Shown one piece after another: positions 3,796-16,327 of a stretch of 16,327 nt of DNA. A program made the position numbers and the translations under genes. Source of the DNA: a virus (taxonomy: Duplodnaviria > Heunggongvirae > Uroviricota > Caudoviricetes); IMG/VR virus record IMGVR_UViG_2645728010_000001; one strand, given 5' to 3'. Each line of letters starts with the position of its first letter. Position 1 is the stretch's first letter. The notes under the pieces are model-generated. The model was not told where the DNA came from. It was given only the letters and a program-made list of their open reading frames with translations, and ran no database searches.

Positions 3796-4741
3796 ACGCC
3801 CACTGGTTATAAACACGCAGCTGGCAATGAAAATCGGCTTAAACGAAGCCATTGTTTTGCAACAACTGCACTACTGGTTGAGAGATACCAACTCCGGTAT
3901 GGAATGTGATGGTGTTCGCTGGATTTATAACACAACGGAACAATGGCTGGAACAGTTCCCATTCTGGTCAGAGTCAACGTTAAAGCGCGCGTTTGCAAGT
4001 CTGAAAACGCTGGGGCTTTTGCGTTGTGAAAAGCTCAATAAATCAAAGCGCGATATGACCAATTTCTACACGATCAACTATGGGAGCGAGCTTTTAGATG
4101 GTGGCAAATTGAACGAATCCATCGGTTCAAAATGCGCCGCTCCATCAGGTCAAAATGACACGATGGAAGAGGTCAAAATGAAACGCTCCATTGGTTCAAA
4201 ACGATCCAATGTCATCGGGTCAAAATGGCCTGATGATCTTACAGAGAATACAACAGAGATTACTACAGAGAATAAAAACACTTTTCGTCCGGAAGCTTCG
4301 CAACCGGACCCGCAGACGACTGAACAGGATTTTTTAACCCGGAACTCCGACGCGGTTGTGTTTAGTGCGAAAAAACGCCAGTGGGGTAGCAGGGAGGATT
4401 TGGCGTGTGCGCAGTGGATCTGGGGGCGGATCGTGGGTCTCTACGAACAGGCAGCCAGTGATGATGGCGAGATCATGCGACCAAAAGAGCCTAACTGGAC
4501 TGCCTGGGCCAATGACGTGCGCACAATGCGGATGCTGGATGGCAGAAGCCACAGACAAATTTGCGAAATGTTTGGTCGGGTTCAGCGAGATCCATTCTGG
4601 GTAAAAAACATCATGAGCCCGTCAAAGCTCCGCGAAAAATGGGACGAACTGGTCATCCGCCTGGGACGTTCACCTGTACAGCGTTGTGTTAATCATATTT
4701 CTGAACCGGATACAGAAATTCCGCCTGGTTTCAGAGGATAA
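3776..4741 (+). CDS. phage replication initiation protein (lambda O-like organisation, iterons inside the gene)
   Basis: 322 aa from ATG 3776 (ORF open from 3722); central IGSK-encoding region coincides with five DNA iterons; located after the cro/CII-like genes. Confidence 0.65.
   Translation: MSLLFAERPLVINTQLAMKIGLNEAIVLQQLHYWLRDTNSGMECDGVRWIYNTTEQWLEQFPFWSESTLKRAFASLKTLGLLRCEKLNKSKRDMTNFYTINYGSELLDGGKLNESIGSKCAAPSGQNDTMEEVKMKRSIGSKRSNVIGSKWPDDLTENTTEITTENKNTFRPEASQPDPQTTEQDFLTRNSDAVVFSAKKRQWGSREDLACAQWIWGRIVGLYEQAASDDGEIMRPKEPNWTAWANDVRTMRMLDGRSHRQICEMFGRVQRDPFWVKNIMSPSKLREKWDELVIRLGRSPVQRCVNHISEPDTEIPPGFRG
4121..4280. repeat. putative replication origin: five iterons GGT(T)CAAAA(T/C)G at 23-24 bp spacing plus adjacent A+T-rich ACAGAGAATA repeats
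   Basis: Direct repeats begin near 4124, 4148, 4171, 4194 and 4218; followed by acagagaatacaacagagattactacagagaataaaaaca; lies inside the initiator ORF as lambda ori lies in O. Confidence 0.55.
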
Positions 4742-8467: not shown

Positions 8468-9334
8468 CTAAGCGAGGTTCTGGTTTTCAAATTGTTCCGG
8501 ACTGAGGCCGCCACACCAACTGTGCCGCCGCCACCGATTGTAATCACATTCGATATAATTAAACACCGTTGCCCGCATTATTTCCCGGCTGATAAAGTGT
8601 TCTCCATGGATACATTCCACTTTCAGCGAATGAAAGAAGCTTTCCACGCAGGCATTATCGTAGCAGCAACCTTTTGCGCTCATACTTCCACGCAGATTAT
8701 GCCGCTTCAGTTGCGCCTGATAATCTGCTGAACAGTACTGGCCTCCACGGTCCGTGTGAACGATAACGTTCCGGGGCCTCTTACGCCGCCACAGCGCCAT
8801 CTGCAGGGCATCGCAGGCCAGTTGCGCCGTCATGCGTGGCGACATTGACCAGCCAATAACGGCACGTGACCACAGGTCAATGACCACTGCCAGATACAGC
8901 CAGCCTTCATCTGTACGTAAGTACGTGATGTCTCCTGCCCACTTCTGGTTCGGGCCACTGGCGTAAAAATCCTGCTCCAACAGATTTTCTGACACAGGCA
9001 GGCCGTGTGCGCGGTAGCTGACCGGGCTGAACTTCCGGGAGGCCTTTGCCCTCAGTCCCTGACGGCGCAGGCTTGCCGCCACGGTTTTTACGTTAAAGGG
9101 GTAACCCTGAGCACGCAGTTCATCCGTCAGGCGTGGGGCACCGTAACGCTGTTTTGACCGGGTAAAAGCCGCGAGGACAACGCTGTCGCAGTGTTGGCGG
9201 AACTGCTGACGCGTGCTTATCCTTGTCCGCCGCTGACACCACGTATACCAGCCGCTGCGGGCCACCCGGAGCACGCGGCACATTGCTTTGATGCTGAACT
9301 CAGCCTGATGTTTTTCAATAAAGACATACTTCAT
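8468..9334 (-). CDS. insF: IS3 transposase OrfB (DDE integrase-like)
   Basis: 288 aa; matches recalled IS3 OrfB; overlaps orfA in ATGA arrangement. Confidence 0.9.
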
Positions 9335-9630
9335 TTCAGGCGCTTCGCGAAGTATGTCGCGGCCTTTTGGAGGATAGCCAGCTCTTCATCCCGTTCTGCC
9401 AGCTGGCGTTTGAGACGTGCAATCTCGGTAGACATCTCCAGTTCACGTTCAGAAGACGTCTGCTGATTTTGCTGTTTACTGCGCCAGTTGTAGAGTTGTG
9501 ATTCATACAGGCTGAGTTCACGGGCTGCGGCAGTAACACCGATGCGTTCAGCAAGCTTCAGGGCTTCACTGCGAAATTCAGGCGAATGCTGTTTACGGGG
9601 TTTTTTACTGGTTGATACTGTTTTTGTCAT
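9331..9630 (-). CDS. insE: IS3 transposase OrfA (HTH)
   Basis: 99 aa from ATG ([31 protein letters not shown]...); the ORF track's longer start is an upstream GTG. Confidence 0.9.
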
Positions 9631-9663
9631 GTGAGTCACCTCTGACTGAGAGTTTACTCACTT

Positions 9664-11592
9664 AACAGCGCACAGGCGGCAGCGGCCTCGCAGACTGCAT
9701 CGGCAAACTCCGCGACAGCAGCTAAAAAATCAGAAAACAACGCGAAAAATAGCGAGACAGCAGCAAAGACGAGCGAAACCAACGCAAAGTCCAGCCAGGC
9801 GGCAGCGAAAACAAGCGAAACGAATGCCAAAACCAGTGAAACTGCGGCGAAAAGCAGTCAGGCTGCAGCAGCCGAAAGCGAGAGTGCGGCAGCCGGTTCT
9901 GCGACTTCAGCAGCTGGATCAGCAACTGCTGCAGCTAACAGCCAGAAAGCAGCGAAGACGAGCGAAACTAACGCAAAGTCCAGCCAGACGGCAGCGAAGA
10001 CCAGCGAAACGAATGCCAAAGCCAGCGAAACTGCGGCGAAAAACAGTCAGGATGCAGCGGCCCAAAGCGAGAGTGCCGCAGCTGGTTCTGCAAGTGCGGC
10101 GGCTTCTTCTGCCACTGCATCAGCCAACAGTCAAAAAGCTGCAAAAACCAGTGAAACCAACGCAAAGGCGAGCGAGACTGCGGCGGCTAACTCGGCGAAA
10201 GCATCCGCTGCAAGCCAGACGGCTGCAAAAGCAAGTGAAGACGCAGCCAGAGAGTATGCAAGCCAGGCTGCGGAGCCGTATAAACAAGTTTTGCAGCCGC
10301 TTCCCGATGTGTGGATACCGTTTAACGATTCACTGGATATGCTTGCTGGCTTTTCGCCTGGTTATAAGCAAATAACTGTAGGTGATGATGTTATTAAAAT
10401 GCCATCCGATAAGGTTGTTAGCTTCAAACGCGCATCAGGTGCAACATACATTAATAAATCAGGAGTATTAACCGTTGCTGAAGTTGACGAACCGCGATTT
10501 GAACGAGAAGGTTTGCTGATTGAAGGACAAAGAACCAACTATCATCTTAATTCACTTACGCCATCTAAGTGGGGAGCTACAACAAGTGTAACTATAACAG
10601 AAAGTGGTGTTGATGAGTTTGGCTTTACTTATGGGCGGTTTCAAATAAAGGACGAAAAAATTGGGACAAATACGACAATGAATATCGCTGCGGTTTCAGG
10701 AGGAAGAGGTGTCGATGTTACTGGAACTGAAAAGTATGTTACAACATCATGTCGTGTAAAAAGCGATAGTGCTAATATACAATGTCGTATAAGATTTGAA
10801 AGATATGACGGGTCCGCATATTTTTATCTGGCAGATGCATATCTTAATATAACAGATATGTCCATTAGGAAAACGGGAGGAGGGGCTGCAAGAATAACCG
10901 CCCGAGCGGAGAAAGAATCTAATGGATGGATTTATTTCGAGGTTACATATCAATCTGAAGCTATTGATAATATGGTTGGCTCTCAGATCCAAATTGCTCC
11001 ACCTGTTTCACCTGGAACTTATTTGGGCGGGGAATATTTGGATGTTACGACACCACAATTTGAAGGCGGCTCATGCGCATCATCTTTTATCATTTCCGAT
11101 ACAGTTGCATCAACGCGAGCAAGCGATATTGTTACATTGCCTTGTAAAAATAACATGGCCAGCAAACCTTTAACCTGCATGGTTGAAGTGAATAAAAATT
11201 GGTCTATAGCACCAAATTCCGCGCCTAGAATTTATGATATAACAGGATTTAAAACAAAAGACGACGCTTTTGTTTTTGCATTCAGAAATACAGCAGGTAG
11301 TGTAGGAACTCCATATGTTCAATTTGGTAATCCAATATCATTTCCACCTGGAAATTACCCAAGAAAGATTATCGCTGTATATAGAATAAAAAGCGATGGC
11401 AAGTTTCAGGCTGGCTGCAATGGGGTTTTATCAACACCAGCATCAACAACGTGGAAGAGTGTTAGTGGTGCTACAGGTATAAGGATTGGAGGCCAGACTA
11501 CAGCCGGCTTACGTCATTTATTTGGTTATATCAGGAATTTTAGAATATGGCATAAAGAATTAACCGATGCGCAAATGGGAGAGATAATATAA
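9664..11592 (+). pseudogene. side tail fibre gene stf, 5'-truncated at the IS3 junction
   Basis: Open frame without start codon begins at the IS3 boundary; N-part is repetitive (KTSETNAKASETAAK-type repeats), then EPYKQVLQPLPDVWIPFNDSLDM junction and a low-GC C-terminal domain ending GLRHLFGYIRNFRIWHKELTDAQMGEII. Confidence 0.8.
9766..10200 (+). repeat. tandem 189-bp (63-codon) repeats with 45-bp sub-repeats inside stf
   Basis: Near-identical units starting about 9766, 9955 and 10144; boundaries approximate. Confidence 0.6.
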
Positions 11593-11873
11593 TGCGAGAT
11601 TTAATTATCAAATTCACAGACAAGGCCGACTTTTCGGCCTTTATGAAGAGTGCTGGCTATTATGATGACGAGTCGATGCAGGATGATATTCTTATTGACG
11701 TGATAGGTAACGTGTACAAAGAAACCGGAGAACTTACTGAAGATGGCGAGCCGGTATGTGTTAAGGAAGACGGATATTTTGTAAACGTGCGCATCATTAA
11801 TGATGCAAAAAAATCGTCAATATTCGATAAATACGCGGTTGTTGTTGAGCATCAACTTCGTGGCTGGATGTGA
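11592..11873 (+). CDS. hypothetical acidic 93-aa protein (possible tail-fibre chaperone or accessory)
   Basis: ATG overlaps stf stop (TAATG); no recognised family. Confidence 0.5.
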   Translation: MRDLIIKFTDKADFSAFMKSAGYYDDESMQDDILIDVIGNVYKETGELTEDGEPVCVKEDGYFVNVRIINDAKKSSIFDKYAVVVEHQLRGWM

Positions 11874-11882
11874 GGCAGGAAA

Positions 11883-12587
11883 ATGGCTACATCGACAGTA
11901 ATTCCAGGAGATATCACCAAGCTAAAGGGGGATGTCAGTAAAGCTAAGGAAGATATTTCATCAATTAGCAGAAAAGTATCAACGCTTCAGACTGAGATGA
12001 CCAGTGCAAAGCAGGATATCAGCTCCAGATACACAAAAACTGAAGTTGATAATAAGCTGAAAAACAAAGTGGAAGTGAACGATCTGGAAAGTGGTCGTTA
12101 TGGCGGAGATTTTTATCCACTGACAGGTCGTGAAGCGTTTTATTTATGGAATTTGGCCACGACTACAGCGGCGGCAAACCTTTATCTTAATCCTGACCCT
12201 GCAATTTCGTCTGTGCTGCGGTCAACATCGTCTATCCGCTATAAACATTCAGTAGAGACAATAGATTCAGAGCACGCCGATCTCATTTTCAGGATGCGCC
12301 CTGTGTGGTACAGGTCGCAATGCGAAAATGACAGGCGTGACTGGGGATTCTACGGATTGATTGCCGAGGAAGTAGGAGAAATTGCTCCTCAGTTTGTACA
12401 CTGGCGACCAGCTAACGAAGATGATGCTCCTGAAGCTATTTCCAGCAATGGCCTTGTTGCCGAAGGTGTAATGTACGAACGTCTGGTTGTTCCACTGATT
12501 CACCATATCCAGAAACTGACTGAAAGAGTTGATGAACTTGAGTCAGAATTAAAGTTGTTATTAACTTCCCGAAGCGATATTAGATAA
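11883..12587 (+). CDS. short fibre-like protein: N-terminal coiled coil plus C-terminal intramolecular-chaperone (peptidase S74-like) domain
   Basis: 234 aa; motifs SSIRYKHSVETID, GLIAEEVGEIAPQFV, NGLVAEGVMYERLVVPLIHHIQKLTERVDELESEL resemble the autocleaving C-terminal chaperone domain of phage fibres and tailspikes. Confidence 0.55.
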   Translation: MATSTVIPGDITKLKGDVSKAKEDISSISRKVSTLQTEMTSAKQDISSRYTKTEVDNKLKNKVEVNDLESGRYGGDFYPLTGREAFYLWNLATTTAAANLYLNPDPAISSVLRSTSSIRYKHSVETIDSEHADLIFRMRPVWYRSQCENDRRDWGFYGLIAEEVGEIAPQFVHWRPANEDDAPEAISSNGLVAEGVMYERLVVPLIHHIQKLTERVDELESELKLLLTSRSDIR

Positions 12588-12597
12588 AGGAGGAGTA

Positions 12598-12891
12598 ATG
12601 GATATAACACCTTTTCTTCATGCGCTTTGTGCTGTGGCTGCGCAGACACTGGTTGGTCTTTTTACCGGAAACTGGGCTTATGGGGCGATAGCTGGTTGTA
12701 CGTTCTTCATTGCGCGTGAACACACCCAGGCAGAATATCGCTGGATTGAAATGTTCGGGCATGGCAAGCGGATTAACATGCCGTGGTGGGGCGGTTTTGA
12801 TCCGCGTGTTTGGGATGTGGCAAGCCTGATGGATTTTGCTGTGCCGGTGGTGGCGTGTCTGCTGATCTGGCTGTTGGTTAATCGTGGGTGA
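12598..12891 (+). CDS. small membrane protein (97 aa, about 2-3 TM segments), function unknown
   Basis: Strong RBS AAGGAGG; hydrophobic segments AVAAQTLVGLFTGNWAYGAIAGCTFFIA and FAVPVVACLLIWLLV. Confidence 0.55.
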   Translation: MDITPFLHALCAVAAQTLVGLFTGNWAYGAIAGCTFFIAREHTQAEYRWIEMFGHGKRINMPWWGGFDPRVWDVASLMDFAVPVVACLLIWLLVNRG

Positions 12892-12901
12892 AAAAAGGTG
12901 A

Positions 12902-13021
12902 GCTGTATATGCAACGGAGGAAGAAACCCCGTTGCTGGAAGCCAGGAAAAAGTATCGGGTGTTGCTGAACCGTGTTGATACGTCAACTGCACAGGATATT
13001 GAATGGCCAGCACTGCCGTAG
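12902..13021 (+). pseudogene. orphan 3' end of a tail fibre assembly gene (tfa remnant)
   Basis: Start-less open frame ...[31 protein letters not shown] resembles the conserved Tfa C-terminus, just upstream of pin where tfa lies in Rac/Qin. Confidence 0.45.
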
Positions 13022-13118
13022 GGTAAAACATATAAATTCTATAATTAGATGTATCTTTCCATTTACGGCAAGGAAGGGGGCTTGGAAGACGTAAAGCATC
13101 TCACACCGAGATTATTTT

Positions 13119-13709
13119 TTATATGTCAGGTGTCTGAAGTTTTGCTTTGGCTCTTAAAATGGTTTGCCGCGAGGTTTTGAATTCCCGGGCAATGGCACTT
13201 ATACTTACACCTGACTTAATCCGTTCGAATACCACCTGTTTCTGTTCTTCATTTAACACAGGTGGTCGACCAAAACGTTTCCCTGCGCCCCGGGCTCTTA
13301 CTATCCCGGAATGAGTGCGTTCAAGTAAAAGGTCTCGTTCAAATTCAGCGACTGCTGAAATTACTTGCATCATCATTTTTCCTGTTGGACTGGTCAGGTC
13401 AATGCCCCCCAATGCTAAGCAATGCACTCTGATACCTGTTTCGGTCAGTTGTTCCACTGTTTTCCTGATATCCATTGCATTACAACCAAGGCGATCCAAT
13501 TTTGTCACAATCAATTGATCACCACATTTCAGGCGAGCAAGCAACCGGTTAAAACCAGGACGCTCACTGGTTGCTGCTGAGCCGCTAATGTGTTCTTCGA
13601 TTATTTGCTGAGGTTTGATTTTAAAACCTGCACTTTCGATTTCCCGGCGTTGATTTTCGGTGGTCTGATCCAGCGTTGATATCCGACAGTAAGCAAAAAT
13701 TCGAGACAT
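13119..13709 (-). CDS. pin: serine-recombinase DNA invertase (Pin/Hin/Gin/Cin family)
   Basis: 196 aa; [12 protein letters not shown]...with catalytic-Ser context (CRIST), resolvase fold motifs and C-terminal HTH ([18 protein letters not shown]). Confidence 0.9.
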
Positions 13710-14024
13710 AGTGAGACTCTATACGAAATTGGTGTTCATATCATAATGCATCTCAGAAAATAATTTTGATTATTTTTGTGCATATTTGTATGTACACGTT
13801 CGAAAATAAACGAATGCGTATGCAACCCCGTAATTTTGGTGAGACCCAAAATCGATTTTGTGAAAAATGGCTTTAACTCGGTTTGTTTTTCGAGTTCCAG
13901 GCGGACTCAAGGAAGAAGAATAGTGTTGCGTGTTATTTTAACCAGATTTCAAGTTGTTTGGTCGTGGAAAAGTGGAGCAAAATGTTGTTAAAGTGGAAAA
14001 TGATAAAAAAGTAAGTTAATTATA

Positions 14025-15043: not shown

Positions 15044-16327
15044 ATGGATTTCCAGTTATATTCGCTCGGCGCAGCGTTAGTGTTTCATGAAATATTTTTT
15101 CCTGAATCATCAACGGCAATGGCGTTAATTTTGGCAATGGGAACCTACGGTGCAGGTTATGTGGCGCGTATTGTCGGAGCATTTATTTTCGGCAAAATGG
15201 GCGACAGAATAGGGCGTAAAAAAGTGCTCTTTATTACCATCACCATGATGGGGATCTGTACCACCTTAATTGGTGTGTTACCGACCTATGCACAGATTGG
15301 TGTTTTTGCCCCCATCTTGCTGGTGACGCTGCGTATTATTCAGGGGTTGGGTGCAGGTGCGGAAATTTCCGGTGCCGGTACGATGCTGGCGGAATATGCA
15401 CCAAAAGGTAAGCGCGGAATTATCTCCTCATTTGTAGCTATGGGAACTAACTGCGGAACCTTGAGCGCAACGGCAATCTGGGCCTTTATGTTCTTCATTC
15501 TCAGTAAAGAGGAACTGCTGGCGTGGGGATGGCGTATACCGTTCCTGGCGAGCGTTGTCGTGATGGTCTTTGCTATCTGGTTACGTATGAATCTGAAAGA
15601 AAGCCCGGTCTTTGAGAAGGTTAATGACAGCAACCAACCCACAGCAAAACCTGCACCTGCTGGTAGCATGTTCCAGAGCAAATCCTTCTGGCTGGCAACA
15701 GGGCTGCGTTTTGGTCAGGCGGGTAACTCCGGGTTAATTCAGACTTTCCTTGCAGGCTATTTAGTGCAGACGTTATTGTTTAACAAAGCAATTCCAACAG
15801 ATGCATTGATGATTAGTTCGATTCTCGGCTTTATGACCATTCCGTTCCTTGGTTGGTTATCCGATAAAATTGGTCGCCGGATCCCGTATATTATTATGAA
15901 TACCTCCGCGATTGTGCTGGCATGGCCAATGCTTTCTATCATTGTAGATAAAAGCTATGCCCCGAGCACCATTATGGTTGCACTGATTGTGATTCATAAC
16001 TGTGCGGTGCTGGGATTATTTGCTCTGGAAAACATTACCATGGCAGAAATGTTCGGCTGTAAAAACCGCTTTACCCGGATGGCTATTTCTAAAGAAATTG
16101 GTGGTCTTATCGCTTCCGGTTTTGGTCCTATCCTGGCGGGTATTTTCTGCACCATGACGGAATCCTGGTATCCGATCGCCATTATGATCATGGCATATTC
16201 AGTGATTGGTTTAATCTCTGCGCTGAAAATGCCAGAGGTGAAAGACCGTGATTTAAGTGCGCTGGAAGACGCTGCGGAAGATCAACCGCGTGTTGTAAGA
16301 GCTGCGCAACCTTCCAGAAGTCTGTAA
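15044..16327 (+). CDS. ydfJ: MFS metabolite:H+ symporter-family transporter, N-terminally truncated at prophage junction (ydfJ-like)
   Basis: 427 aa with MFS signatures (GDRIGRKK, 12-TM-like hydropathy); alignment logic with family members implies about 25 N-terminal residues (start of TM1) are missing; in-frame stop 3 nt upstream of the ATG. Confidence 0.75.
   Translation: MDFQLYSLGAALVFHEIFFPESSTAMALILAMGTYGAGYVARIVGAFIFGKMGDRIGRKKVLFITITMMGICTTLIGVLPTYAQIGVFAPILLVTLRIIQGLGAGAEISGAGTMLAEYAPKGKRGIISSFVAMGTNCGTLSATAIWAFMFFILSKEELLAWGWRIPFLASVVVMVFAIWLRMNLKESPVFEKVNDSNQPTAKPAPAGSMFQSKSFWLATGLRFGQAGNSGLIQTFLAGYLVQTLLFNKAIPTDALMISSILGFMTIPFLGWLSDKIGRRIPYIIMNTSAIVLAWPMLSIIVDKSYAPSTIMVALIVIHNCAVLGLFALENITMAEMFGCKNRFTRMAISKEIGGLIASGFGPILAGIFCTMTESWYPIAIMIMAYSVIGLISALKMPEVKDRDLSALEDAAEDQPRVVRAAQPSRSL

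What the first reader, a model, noticed from the sequence alone, without database searches (positions are those of the whole stretch)
11592..13021. Three-gene cassette wedged between the tail-fibre gene and an orphan tfa 3' end
Where Rac/Qin-type prophages have tfa directly after stf, this window has a 93-aa acidic ORF, a 234-aa protein combining a coiled coil with an autoproteolytic intramolecular-chaperone-like C-terminal domain, and a 97-aa membrane protein, followed by a start-less fragment that looks like the last ~39 codons of tfa. This reads as a module replacement that swapped the usual Tfa chaperone for a different fibre-maturation set plus a membrane moron. A stand-alone short protein carrying this chaperone-type domain in the tfa slot is unusual; the membrane protein could be an exclusion or immunity factor. 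All three are uncharacterised as far as I can tell.
Basis: partly seen in the sequence, partly recalled or inferred. Interest (0 to 1): 0.65.

Follow-up and report, generated by a model that had tools for sequence, protein, structure and literature searches.

The report
Tfa-independent side-tail-fibre accessory gene module
The three small genes are real and intact, but they are a common, mobile accessory set that travels with one type of phage side-tail-fibre tip in many E. coli prophages and active phages, stranded here in the defective Qin prophage of E. coli B; none of the three has been studied experimentally.

Summary
The window is the Qin prophage end of E. coli B/BL21(DE3). It holds three intact ORFs (93, 234 and 97 aa) between the stf 3' end and a start-less tfa fragment, next to pinQ. 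The S74 prediction and the tfa-fragment prediction both hold.

The "unusual local swap" reading does not hold. The same block, stf tip, p93, optional S74 protein, p97 and tfa scar, recurs in active lambdoid phages. It is also seen in about 127 IMG/VR loci. Phage 21 and Nissle 1917 carry it without the middle gene. T1-like lytic phages carry it without p97. Among complete E. coli genomes, 13% carry p93+p234 and 34% carry p97.

- **p93** always follows this lectin-tipped Stf and is start/stop-coupled to it. I read it as the Stf partner, probably a chaperone, but it has no known chaperone fold.
- **p234** is an exchangeable short fibre with its own self-cleaving chaperone domain. Its N-terminal motif is shared with an alternative 343-aa fibre.
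- **p97** is a conserved three-helix membrane protein of unknown function.

Here stf is beheaded by IS3, so the fibre set is probably a relic. I found no experimental work on any of the three. Interest is moderate.

The parts
8468..9639 (-). IS3 transposase ORFs (insE/insF-type). The insertion or deletion removed the 5' part of stf and the upstream late genes.
   Evidence: ORFs. RefSeq 'IS3-like element IS3 family transposase' at the equivalent BL21(DE3) position, followed by a stf pseudogene 'missing N-terminus'.
9646..11592 (+). stf 3' remnant: Ala/Ser/Lys-rich 21-nt and 189-nt repeat shaft, then a GTA-head-spike-fibre-like domain and a Laminin_G_3 (ConA-like) C-terminal domain. This is the receptor-binding tip type that the cassette travels with.
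   Evidence: Open frame from 9646. Repeats. NCBIfam NF048003 E=4e-14 and Pfam Laminin_G_3 E=2e-5 (25.0 bits, below the 27.6-bit gathering cut-off), residues numbered from 10291. phrog_1419 'tail protein' E=1e-183. Against phage Stfs the shaft is 86-100% identical (lambdoid phages), the tip core 44-58% and the last ~20 alignment columns 83-100%.
11592..11873 (+). p93: small acidic alpha/beta protein and constant partner of this Stf type. Inferred to be an Stf assembly or partner protein.
11883..12587 (+). p234: short fibre protein. It has an N-terminal motif MATSTVIPxDITxLKG, heptad-like coiled-coil repeats, a ~50-aa fibre-tip-like segment and a Peptidase_S74 intramolecular chaperone domain from S116 (SSIRYK).
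   Evidence: Pfam PF13884 above cut-off. PDB hit 8hqz_d. PHROG matches to the C-terminal ends of long tail fibres, and of residues 1-32 to the N-termini of phrog_4563 and phrog_19752. N-terminal motif shared with the 343-aa HannyBb fibre and the Drexlerviridae 225-aa protein. S116 conserved in 57 of 63 and K121 in 61 of 63 homologues.
12598..12891 (+). p97: conserved three-helix membrane protein with invariant motif REHTQAEYRWI..FG.GKR.NMPWWGGFD.R.W. Function unknown.
   Evidence: phrog_1443 E=3e-58. 579 homologues, none with Pfam or a name. Invariant columns. AF2 pLDDT 92.5. No PDB fold or sequence match. No PADLOC hit. AGGAGG 6 nt upstream of the ATG.
12902..13021 (+). Start-less 3' fragment of a tfa (Caudo_TAP) gene: a recombination scar that forms the right edge of the module.
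   Evidence: Caudo_TAP positions 95-130/131, E=6e-14. Homology to K-12 tfaQ begins at 12910. The same fragment sits 14 nt after the p97 stop in most IMG/VR loci and in phages and genomes.
13119..13709 (-). pinQ DNA invertase. It is adjacent to the module but has no detectable crossover sites bounding it.
   Evidence: ORF, annotation. No gix-like site or AAACCNNGGTTT core in the window. No long inverted repeats flanking 9600-13200.

Best explanation
The region is the distal end of a horizontally mobile side-tail-fibre module used by lambdoid phages. Without p97, it is also used by T1-like lytic phages. Here it is fossilised in the defective Qin prophage of E. coli B.

The module consists of:
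1. An Stf whose tip is a GTA-head-spike-fibre-like domain plus a ConA/LamG lectin-like domain. No full-length tfa lies in the stretches inspected around the module.
2. p93, a small acidic protein that is translationally coupled to stf and always present. I infer it is the cognate folding or assembly partner of this Stf tip, the functional stand-in for Tfa. It is not a member of any known chaperone family.
3. An optional, exchangeable middle gene. Here it is p234, which I infer to be a short trimeric fibre. Its own C-terminal S74 domain would drive trimer folding and then cut itself off at about S116, leaving a ~115-aa coiled-coil stalk with a small tip. The conserved N-terminal ~15-25 residues would dock it to the Stf/p93 assembly, giving a second, swappable receptor-binding branch.
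4. p97, a conserved three-helix inner-membrane protein translated from the same late transcript. Its role is unknown. My best guess is an envelope-directed function, such as masking a surface receptor or excluding superinfection.
5. A tfa 3' scar left by the ancestral recombination that replaced a Tfa-type module.

Shown: gene content, domain assignments, synteny, modular breakpoints and prevalence. Inferred: every physical interaction and every function. In this window stf has lost its virion-attachment end to IS3, so no fibre can be built.
For: Identity and context:
- 100% match to BL21(DE3)/REL606 Qin.
- The junction with the K-12 sequence lies inside tfa.

The module recurs:
- PhiR49_1 and IdasGreatGrand carry stf-p93-p234-p97-tfa'.
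- HannyBb, a 106-kb plasmid and strain PSS-04 carry a 343-346-aa S74 fibre in the middle slot.
- Phage 21, 4A7 and Nissle 1917 carry stf-p93-p97.
- Drexlerviridae KarlJaspers and swan01 carry LTF-p93-S74 protein.
- Among 127 IMG/VR loci, the gene just upstream of p97 is p234-type in 54, 343-type in 36 and p93 in 28.
- A third divergent p93 class fills the slot where tblastn missed it.

Modularity:
- About 280 E. coli genomes match only part of the query; the partial hits listed cover p93 plus the first ~25-65 nt of p234, so a breakpoint lies just after the N-terminal motif.
- The Stf tip core is 44-58% identical while the downstream genes are 84-96% identical.

p234 as a self-chaperoned fibre:
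- S74 above the Pfam cut-off.
- SSIRYK, with S116 and K121, is conserved across homologues.
- Match to the chaperone region of the DT57C-type LTF.
- Residues 30-116 align with the fibre region preceding the chaperone domain in PHROG tail-fibre families.
- The alternative 343-aa protein has the same N-terminus, a different body and a canonical S74 domain.

Precedent: branched LtfA/LtfB fibres in DT57C (PMC4728585, PMC10713586), and proximal/distal fibre subunits in BASEL phages (PMC11990801).

Operon structure: overlapping or closely spaced genes with a strong SD, and no internal promoter or terminator calls.
Against: - No physical evidence exists for any interaction. The multimer modelling that could test docking was not available.
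- The mature part of p234 is very small for a receptor-binding fibre.
- BASEL authors annotated the homologue as 'putative lateral tail fiber chaperone'.
- Side tail fibres are dispensable for plaque formation in lambda PaPa (PMC11990801). Presence in plaque-forming phages therefore does not prove the module is functional.
- p97 is highly conserved while the neighbouring receptor-binding genes vary. It also occurs away from fibre genes in Aeromonas phages and in an Aeromonas chromosome. Its tie to the fibre module may be only positional.
Confidence: 0.6

Rival explanations
1. p234 is a stand-alone, trans-acting chaperone that folds the Stf tip. It would be a Tfa replacement, as the first reader and the BASEL annotation suggest, and would not be part of the virion.
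For: - The S74 domain is a chaperone domain, and the gene sits in the tfa slot.
- No S74 or Caudo_TAP match was found in the Stf C-terminal 433 aa.
- Homologues are annotated 'putative lateral tail fiber chaperone' or 'chaperone of endosialidase'.
Against: - The same Stf type and p93 occur without any middle gene in phage 21, 4A7, Nissle 1917 and at least 26 IMG/VR loci.
- The middle slot alternates between p234 and a 343-aa protein that has a different body, its own S74 domain and only the N-terminal motif in common.
- Residues 30-116 of p234 align with fibre segments upstream of the chaperone domain in long fibres.
- From established knowledge, characterised S74 domains (K1F endosialidase, T5 pb1) act in cis on the polypeptide they are cleaved from.
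Confidence: 0.2
2. p97 is an autonomous moron. It would be a prophage-expressed inner-membrane protein that gives the lysogen superinfection exclusion or another envelope phenotype, unrelated to fibre biology.
For: [quoted passage not shown]
- It is present in 34% of E. coli genomes, often in several copies.
- It sits after unrelated receptor-binding genes: a P22-like tailspike, a P2-like fibre, between two tailspikes, and after GpJ-like proteins.
- It also occurs away from fibre genes and in a non-phage Aeromonas locus.
- It is absent from the lytic Drexlerviridae versions of the module.
Against: - No promoter-like or terminator-like signals flank it, and it starts 10 nt after the p234 stop behind a strong SD. 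It looks co-transcribed with the late genes.
- No PADLOC, Pfam or NCBIfam match.
- About 24-28 invariant residues across genera suggest a conserved enzymatic or binding function rather than a phage-specific blocker.
- It is encoded in Aeromonas phages of more than 230 kb, next to a putative helicase/terminase gene.
Confidence: 0.3
3. The three ORFs are decayed remnants. For example, p234 could be the 3' piece of a once longer fibre gene, with no function in any context.
For: - The prophage is defective and stf is truncated by IS3.
- p234 matches the last 237 positions of a 1385-position PHROG profile.
- IS elements interrupt the cassette in other strains.
- Deletion variants exist, such as L080.
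Against: - The same start, RBS spacing and N-terminal motif are kept in homologues of 221-269 aa, including those of about 45 lytic phages.
- The catalytic motif is conserved.
- All three ORFs are intact and 84-97% identical to those of plaque-forming phages.
Confidence: 0.05
4. The segment is, or was, a Pin-invertible host-range switch like Mu G, P1 C or e14 P. The cassette would be one of two alternative fibre-tip sets.
For: - pinQ lies directly downstream.
- An invertase also follows the module in phage HannyBb and in many IMG/VR loci.
Against: - No gix-like site with up to 3 mismatches, and no AAACCNNGGTTT core with up to 1 mismatch, anywhere in the window.
- No inverted repeats bracket the segment.
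- All module genes are on one strand, with no oppositely oriented alternative set.
Confidence: 0.03

Closest known systems
Lambda/Rac/Qin Stf-Tfa module (Tfa = Pfam Caudo_TAP)
   Same: Same genomic slot: distal end of the lambdoid tail operon, next to pin in Qin and Rac. Same Stf shaft. The module still ends with the last ~37 codons of tfa.
   Different: The Stf tip is a GTA-spike-fibre-like domain plus a LamG lectin-like domain. No complete tfa is present. It is replaced by p93, which is unrelated in sequence and has no known chaperone fold, plus an optional S74 fibre and p97.
Branched L-shaped tail fibres of T5-like phage DT57C (LtfA/LtfB) and T5 pb1, which carry a C-terminal intramolecular chaperone
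   Same: p234's chaperone domain is most similar to this group (8hqz_d; SGIEYK against SSIRYK). The precedent is a second fibre protein, encoded just downstream, that joins the first fibre to add a receptor specificity (PMC4728585, PMC10713586).
   Different: p234 is far smaller: about 115 aa when mature, against hundreds. The primary fibre here has no match to the S74 domain in its C-terminal 433 aa. An extra small protein, p93, lies between the two genes. Attachment has not been demonstrated.
Endosialidase (K1F) C-terminal intramolecular chaperone, MEROPS/Pfam Peptidase_S74
   Same: Pfam match above the cut-off. The Ser...Lys(+5) motif is conserved. The domain is C-terminal and followed by a helical tail.
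   Different: It sits on a 234-aa stand-alone protein rather than on a large spike or fibre. Autocleavage has not been tested.
BASEL Drexlerviridae lateral-tail-fibre locus (e.g. KarlJaspers Bas06 genes 0037-0035)
   Same: Same three-gene order of LTF, p93 homologue (51% identity) and S74 protein (about 60% identity).
   Different: These are lytic T1-like phages with no p97, no tfa scar and no pin. The authors state that the role of these fibres 'has never been directly demonstrated' (PMC8594841).
Gin/Pin/Cin invertible fibre segments (Mu G, e14 P, P1 C)
   Same: A Pin-family invertase gene lies immediately next to fibre-tip and fibre-assembly genes.
   Different: No crossover sites, no inverted alternative gene set, and all genes on one strand.
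Phage-encoded membrane exclusion proteins linked to receptor-binding genes (T5 Llp, phi80/T1 Cor, HK97 gp15, T4 Imm). Cited from general knowledge, not tested here.
   Same: p97 is a small membrane protein, often encoded right after receptor-binding genes.
   Different: No sequence or fold relation was found. p97 is not a lipoprotein. It stays conserved while the adjacent receptor-binding proteins vary. It is also found outside fibre loci.

Membership tests
Peptidase_S74 intramolecular chaperone domain (p234) | Sequence match to PF13884 above the curated threshold | tested here: met
   27.5 bits against a cut-off of 22, residues 116-172, profile positions 1-57 of 58. PDB hit to the chaperone region of 8hqz_d, E=2.7e-6.
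Peptidase_S74 intramolecular chaperone domain (p234) | Catalytic Ser with Lys five residues downstream at the start of the domain | tested here: met
   S116-S-I-R-Y-K121. S116 is conserved in 57 of 63 homologues and K121 in 61 of 63. It aligns with SGIEYK of the T5-like fibre.
Peptidase_S74 intramolecular chaperone domain (p234) | C-terminal position, directly after a trimeric fibre or spike segment of the same polypeptide | tested here: met
   The domain occupies residues 116-234. Residues 30-116 align with the fibre region upstream of the chaperone domain in phrog_454 and phrog_1699, and heptad-like repeats fill residues 12-65. Trimer state is not tested.
Peptidase_S74 intramolecular chaperone domain (p234) | Autoproteolytic release after folding | not testable with these tools
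   Needs expression and SDS-PAGE or mass spectrometry of wild type against S116A/K121A mutants.
Tail fibre assembly protein Tfa (Caudo_TAP, PF02413): the 12902-13021 fragment | Full-length domain with a start codon | tested here: not met
   Only profile positions 95-130 of 131 are present, after an in-frame stop and with no ATG or GTG. RefSeq marks it as a partial pseudogene. It is a fragment, not a gene.
Tail fibre assembly protein Tfa (Caudo_TAP) or another known fibre chaperone: p93 | Sequence or fold similarity to Tfa/gpU/gpG, gp38 or gp57A | tested here: not met
Moron (autonomous prophage gene unit): p97 | Own promoter and terminator flanking the gene | tested here: inconclusive
   Consensus scans found no sigma-70-like site just upstream of p97 and no intrinsic terminator in 11400-13800. 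The gene starts 10 nt after the p234 stop with AGGAGG. Consensus scans are weak evidence.
Known anti-phage defence or exclusion proteins: p93, p234, p97 | Match to a PADLOC model | tested here: not met
   No families at E<=0.1 for any of the three.
Gin/Pin invertible fibre segment | Pair of inverted ~26-bp crossover sites bracketing the segment, with an oppositely oriented alternative gene set | tested here: not met
   No gix-like match with up to 3 mismatches, no AAACCNNGGTTT core, no bracketing inverted repeats, and all genes on the + strand.
Branched (two-protein) lateral tail fibre, DT57C LtfA/LtfB type | Second fibre protein encoded downstream, with a conserved N-terminal attachment region and a variable receptor-binding body | tested here: met
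   The N-terminal motif MAT(S/V)T.IP.DI..LK is conserved between p234, the 225-aa Drexlerviridae protein and the 343-aa HannyBb fibre, while the bodies differ. A genomic breakpoint lies just after the motif.
Branched (two-protein) lateral tail fibre, DT57C LtfA/LtfB type | Physical attachment of the second fibre to the first in the virion | not testable with these tools
   Needs virion proteomics, cryo-EM or multimer modelling. Only monomer prediction was available.

The most novel reading that the evidence does not exclude
Two unrecognised protein families ride on this common module.

- p93 would be a new class of tail-fibre assembly or adaptor protein. It would replace Tfa for lectin-tipped side fibres and provide the docking platform for plug-in short S74 fibres.
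- p97 would be a small inner-membrane protein with an enzyme-like invariant motif, carried by a third of E. coli genomes. It would act on a conserved envelope pathway, for example masking glycan receptors so that progeny are not trapped, or excluding superinfecting phages.
Probability: 0.25. Interest if true: 0.65.

Novelty: new variant of a known kind. Interest (0 to 1): 0.38.

Why it matters
This module sits in laboratory and probiotic workhorse strains (BL21(DE3), REL606, Nissle 1917). It is also in the classical phage 21 and in BASEL reference phages, yet all three accessory proteins are annotated only as hypothetical or generic.

If p93 is the chaperone for lectin-tipped Stf, and the S74 mini-fibres are plug-in second receptor binders, that gives a compact, Tfa-independent toolkit for retargeting lambda-type particles. 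It would also explain part of the host-range mosaicism of temperate coliphages.

p97, present in a third of E. coli genomes, would be a new envelope-active phage protein if it turns out to change adsorption or surface glycans.

If none of this holds, the locus is simply an ordinary mosaic tail-fibre region in a dead prophage.

Tried and rejected
- **Invertible segment.** I searched for gix-type sites and bracketing inverted repeats and found none. Rejected.
- **Defence system.** PADLOC was negative for all three proteins.
- **p97 as holin or lysis gene.** Its neighbours in the Comamonas and IMG/VR loci had no lysis-related Pfam or PHROG hits. Lambdoid lysis cassettes lie elsewhere. Not supported.
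- **p97 strictly linked to receptor-binding genes.** This looked promising. It was weakened by Aeromonas phage and chromosomal contexts.
- **Fold searches.**
  - p97 against PDB (Foldseek) gave nothing below E=2.
  - The afdb50 library was unavailable.
- **Profile against PDB sequences** for p93 and p97 gave nothing.
- **Fusions of the p93 domain to larger proteins.** The search of 1.8 billion representatives found mainly stand-alone forms of about 85-125 aa, plus short acidic-stretch matches in three very long proteins.
- **Literature.**
  - BASEL papers, DT57C papers, a lambda Stf engineering preprint, an APEC prophage orf6/orf10 paper and two virion-proteomics papers (swan01, vB_EcoS-B2) were checked.
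  - None characterises these proteins or reports them in virions.
- **First homologue search** failed for lack of a queue slot and was repeated.

Full report
**1. What the window is**

- A megablast of 10291-13120 gives 100% identity over the full length to E. coli B derivatives (BL21(DE3), REL606, C41/C43 and others).
- RefSeq annotation of BL21(DE3) places the stretch at the right end of the cryptic prophage Qin. The gene order is:
  - Q antiterminator, a lipocalin gene and an IS3 element;
  - a stf pseudogene 'missing N-terminus' ('phage head spike fiber domain-containing protein');
  - a hypothetical protein, a 'tail fiber domain-containing protein' and a second hypothetical protein;
  - a partial 'tail fiber assembly protein';
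  - pinQ, ydfK, ynfT and a truncated ydfJ.

**2. Checking the observation**

- p93 is acidic, with pI 4.45.
- p234 matches Pfam Peptidase_S74 above the gathering threshold at residues 116-172. It has weak coiled-coil-family matches at both ends.
- Its only relative among solved structures by sequence is the C-terminal chaperone region of a T5-like L-shaped tail fibre, 8hqz_d.
- p97 is a membrane protein with a confident three-helix model, pLDDT 92.5.
- The frame 12902-13021 matches only the last 36 positions of the Caudo_TAP profile, at E=6e-14.
- DNA identity to K-12 Qin (98.9%) starts at 12910, inside tfaQ at about codon 155, and runs to the end of the window. Nothing upstream of that point matches K-12 Qin.
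- In K-12, tfaQ follows stfQ directly.

**3. The cassette is not a local oddity**

tblastn against phage genomes finds the same gene order in several settings:

| Arrangement | Where |
|---|---|
| stf-p93-p234-p97-tfa fragment | Plaque-forming lambdoid phages PhiR49_1 and IdasGreatGrand |
| 343-346-aa S74 fibre in place of p234 | HannyBb (followed by an invertase, as here), a 106-kb plasmid, strain PSS-04 |
| Middle gene absent | Classical phage 21, phage 4A7, Nissle 1917 |
| LTF-p93-S74 protein, no p97 | About 45 lytic Drexlerviridae, including BASEL phages KarlJaspers and PeterMerian; annotated 'putative lateral tail fiber chaperone' |

- In 127 IMG/VR loci carrying p97, the gene immediately upstream is p234-type in 54, the 343-aa type in 36 and p93 in 28.
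- In most of those loci the tfa fragment begins exactly 14 nt after the p97 stop, and pin follows in a subset.
- Loci where tblastn missed p93 contain a third, divergent p93 class in the same slot.
- Among 5426 complete E. coli genomes:
  - 719 carry p93+p234 at 80% coverage or more;
  - 1869 carry p97, with a median of two copies;
  - only 74 carry this exact Stf-tip allele together with the cassette.
- In strain AST205 the same cassette lies in a Rac-type prophage.

The tfa scar is thus an inherited edge of the module, not a trace of a recent event in strain B.

**4. Anatomy and modularity**

- The Stf remnant has an Ala/Ser/Lys-rich repeat shaft. It then has a GTA-head-spike-fibre-like domain (NCBIfam NF048003) and a Laminin_G_3 lectin-like end.
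- Compared with phages whose p93, p234 and p97 are 84-96% identical to the window's, the shaft is 86-100% identical in the lambdoid phages. The tip core is only 44-58% identical, and the last ~20 alignment columns are 83-100% identical.
- About 280 further E. coli genomes match only part of the query. The partial hits listed cover p93 plus the first ~25-65 nt of p234, which places a recombination breakpoint right after a conserved N-terminal motif.
- That motif, MAT(S/V)T.IP.DI..LK, is shared by p234, the 225-aa Drexlerviridae protein (61% identity overall) and the 343-aa HannyBb fibre (21% overall, different body).
- The 343-aa protein also ends in a canonical S74 domain. It resembles the C-terminus of the S16 long tail fibre and, weakly, T4 gp34 knob repeats.
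- In p234 the S74 start motif S116-S-I-R-Y-K121 is conserved, with S in 57 of 63 and K in 61 of 63 homologues.
- Residues 30-116 align with the fibre region preceding the chaperone domain in PHROG tail-fibre families.
- Gene junctions indicate one transcript with translational coupling: a TAATG overlap, a 9-nt gap, and a 10-nt gap with AGGAGG.
- The consensus scans found no promoter just upstream of p97 or of p234, and no terminator-like site anywhere in 11400-13800.

**5. p93**

- It is a narrow family: 53 representative clusters among 1.8 billion proteins.
- The full-length matches are stand-alone proteins of about 85-125 aa.
- It has no Pfam, NCBIfam or PADLOC match.
- The AlphaFold model has pLDDT 82. 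It is an alpha/beta sandwich with a less confident C-terminal tail that ends in a conserved R-x-W.
- It follows this Stf type in every context inspected, whether or not the middle gene or p97 is present.
- I therefore infer that it is the Stf tip's cognate partner, probably an assembly chaperone or adaptor. This is an inference from position and coupling, not a family membership.

**6. p97**

- 579 homologues were found, none with a Pfam domain or a name.
- About 24-28 columns are invariant across Enterobacteriaceae, Aeromonas and Comamonas. They are concentrated in REHTQAEYRWI..FG.GKR.NMPWWGGFD.R.W.
- No solved fold or sequence relative was found.
- It often lies directly after receptor-binding genes of unrelated phage types:

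| Position of p97 | Context |
|---|---|
| After the tailspike | P22-like phage JEP4 |
| After an S74-bearing tail fibre | P2-like prophage in Leclercia |
| Between two tailspikes | Salmonella |
| After GpJ-like proteins or a DUF4376 protein | Comamonas and IMG/VR prophages |

- It also occurs elsewhere:
  - among head and neck genes of an Aeromonas podovirus;
  - next to a putative helicase/terminase gene in an Aeromonas jumbo phage;
  - in a non-phage Aeromonas chromosomal locus near lipid A acyltransferase genes.
- Its strong conservation next to highly variable receptor-binding proteins argues against a receptor-specific blocker.
- Its function stays open. An envelope-directed role is my best guess, at roughly 0.3.

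**7. Interpretation**

- The best-supported reading is a mobile, Tfa-independent side-tail-fibre module.
- p234 fits a short, self-chaperoned, plug-in fibre better than a trans-acting chaperone for Stf. There are three reasons:
  - the Stf/p93 pair exists without it;
  - the slot is exchangeable with a different fibre that shares only the N-terminal motif;
  - p234 carries a fibre-like segment ahead of its own chaperone domain.
- The nearest precedents are the branched LtfA/LtfB fibres of DT57C (PMC4728585, PMC10713586) and the proximal/distal fibre subunits described for BASEL phages (PMC11990801).
- BASEL's authors note that the role of Drexlerviridae lateral fibres 'has never been directly demonstrated' (PMC8594841).
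- In this window the stf 5' end and all upstream late genes have been lost to IS3. The fibre components are therefore relics. Whether p97 is still expressed is unknown.

**8. Rejected ideas**

- **Pin-invertible switch.** Rejected: no crossover sites, no bracketing inverted repeats, and all genes on one strand.
- **Known defence system.** Rejected: PADLOC was negative.
- **p234 as a decayed gene fragment.** Rejected: the start and N-terminal motif are conserved in homologues of 221-269 aa, including those of lytic phages.

**9. Verdict**

- The arrangement is common and already sequenced and annotated many times. The three proteins are uncharacterised as far as the searchable literature shows.
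- I rate it a new variant of a known kind (a tail-fibre accessory module), of moderate interest.

Noticed in passing
window 8468-9664: An IS3 element abuts the stf remnant. Upstream of it lie a truncated 2-thiouracil desulfurase-family gene and a lipocalin gene. The whole lysis, head and tail region of Qin, between the Q antiterminator and the middle of stf, is missing in E. coli B.
   Followed up: partly
window 9706-10239: The stf shaft is built from 21-nt periodic repeats nested in two 189-nt tandem copies that are 85% identical. They encode Ala/Ser/Lys/Thr-rich repeats.
   Followed up: no
L012 5001-5309 (Aeromonas rivipollensis chromosome): A p97 homologue (57% identity) sits in a non-phage chromosomal neighbourhood. 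Its neighbours are a pirin gene, a RIO1 kinase gene and two lipid A acyltransferase-family genes. This hints that the family has a cellular, envelope-related origin.
   Followed up: no
L017 1181-4297; L018 1398-6777; L009 1842-4288: p97 homologues lie immediately after, or between, receptor-binding genes of unrelated phage types: a P2-like fibre with S74, two pectate-lyase tailspikes, and a P22-like tailspike. The pattern is recurrent but not universal.
   Followed up: partly
L080 ~4100-4500 (IMG/VR): A deletion variant of the module keeps only the last ~35 codons of the 343-aa S74 fibre between p93 and p97. This shows ongoing decay or rearrangement of the middle slot.
   Followed up: no
L002 8350-9561 (strain AST205); NZ_CP135658.1 (strain TUM10008): In other strains the same cassette is interrupted by insertion sequences: an IS3-family element between p234 and p97, and IS1 within the p93/p234 stretch. 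In AST205 the cassette lies in a Rac-type prophage whose pin gene has an internal stop.
   Followed up: no
one search hit list (phage collection): p93 homologues were reported in records named as Campylobacter (8) and Listeria (2) phages. This is unexpected for an enterobacterial fibre-module protein. It may reflect mislabelled or contaminant records, or real transfer.
   Followed up: no
window 12678-13031 (- strand): A 117-aa ORF on the opposite strand overlaps p97 and the tfa fragment. It is not annotated in RefSeq and was not searched for homologues. It is probably spurious.
   Followed up: no
L007 and L014 (phage 21, Nissle 1917), just after p97: In the phage 21-type arrangement, the sitABCD iron/manganese transporter operon lies directly downstream of p97 on the opposite strand. 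The module's right edge is therefore a cargo-insertion hotspot.
   Followed up: no
window 15044-16327: ydfJ is truncated at its 5' end at the prophage junction, as annotated in BL21(DE3). The listed ORF start at 15044 is an internal ATG.
   Followed up: no
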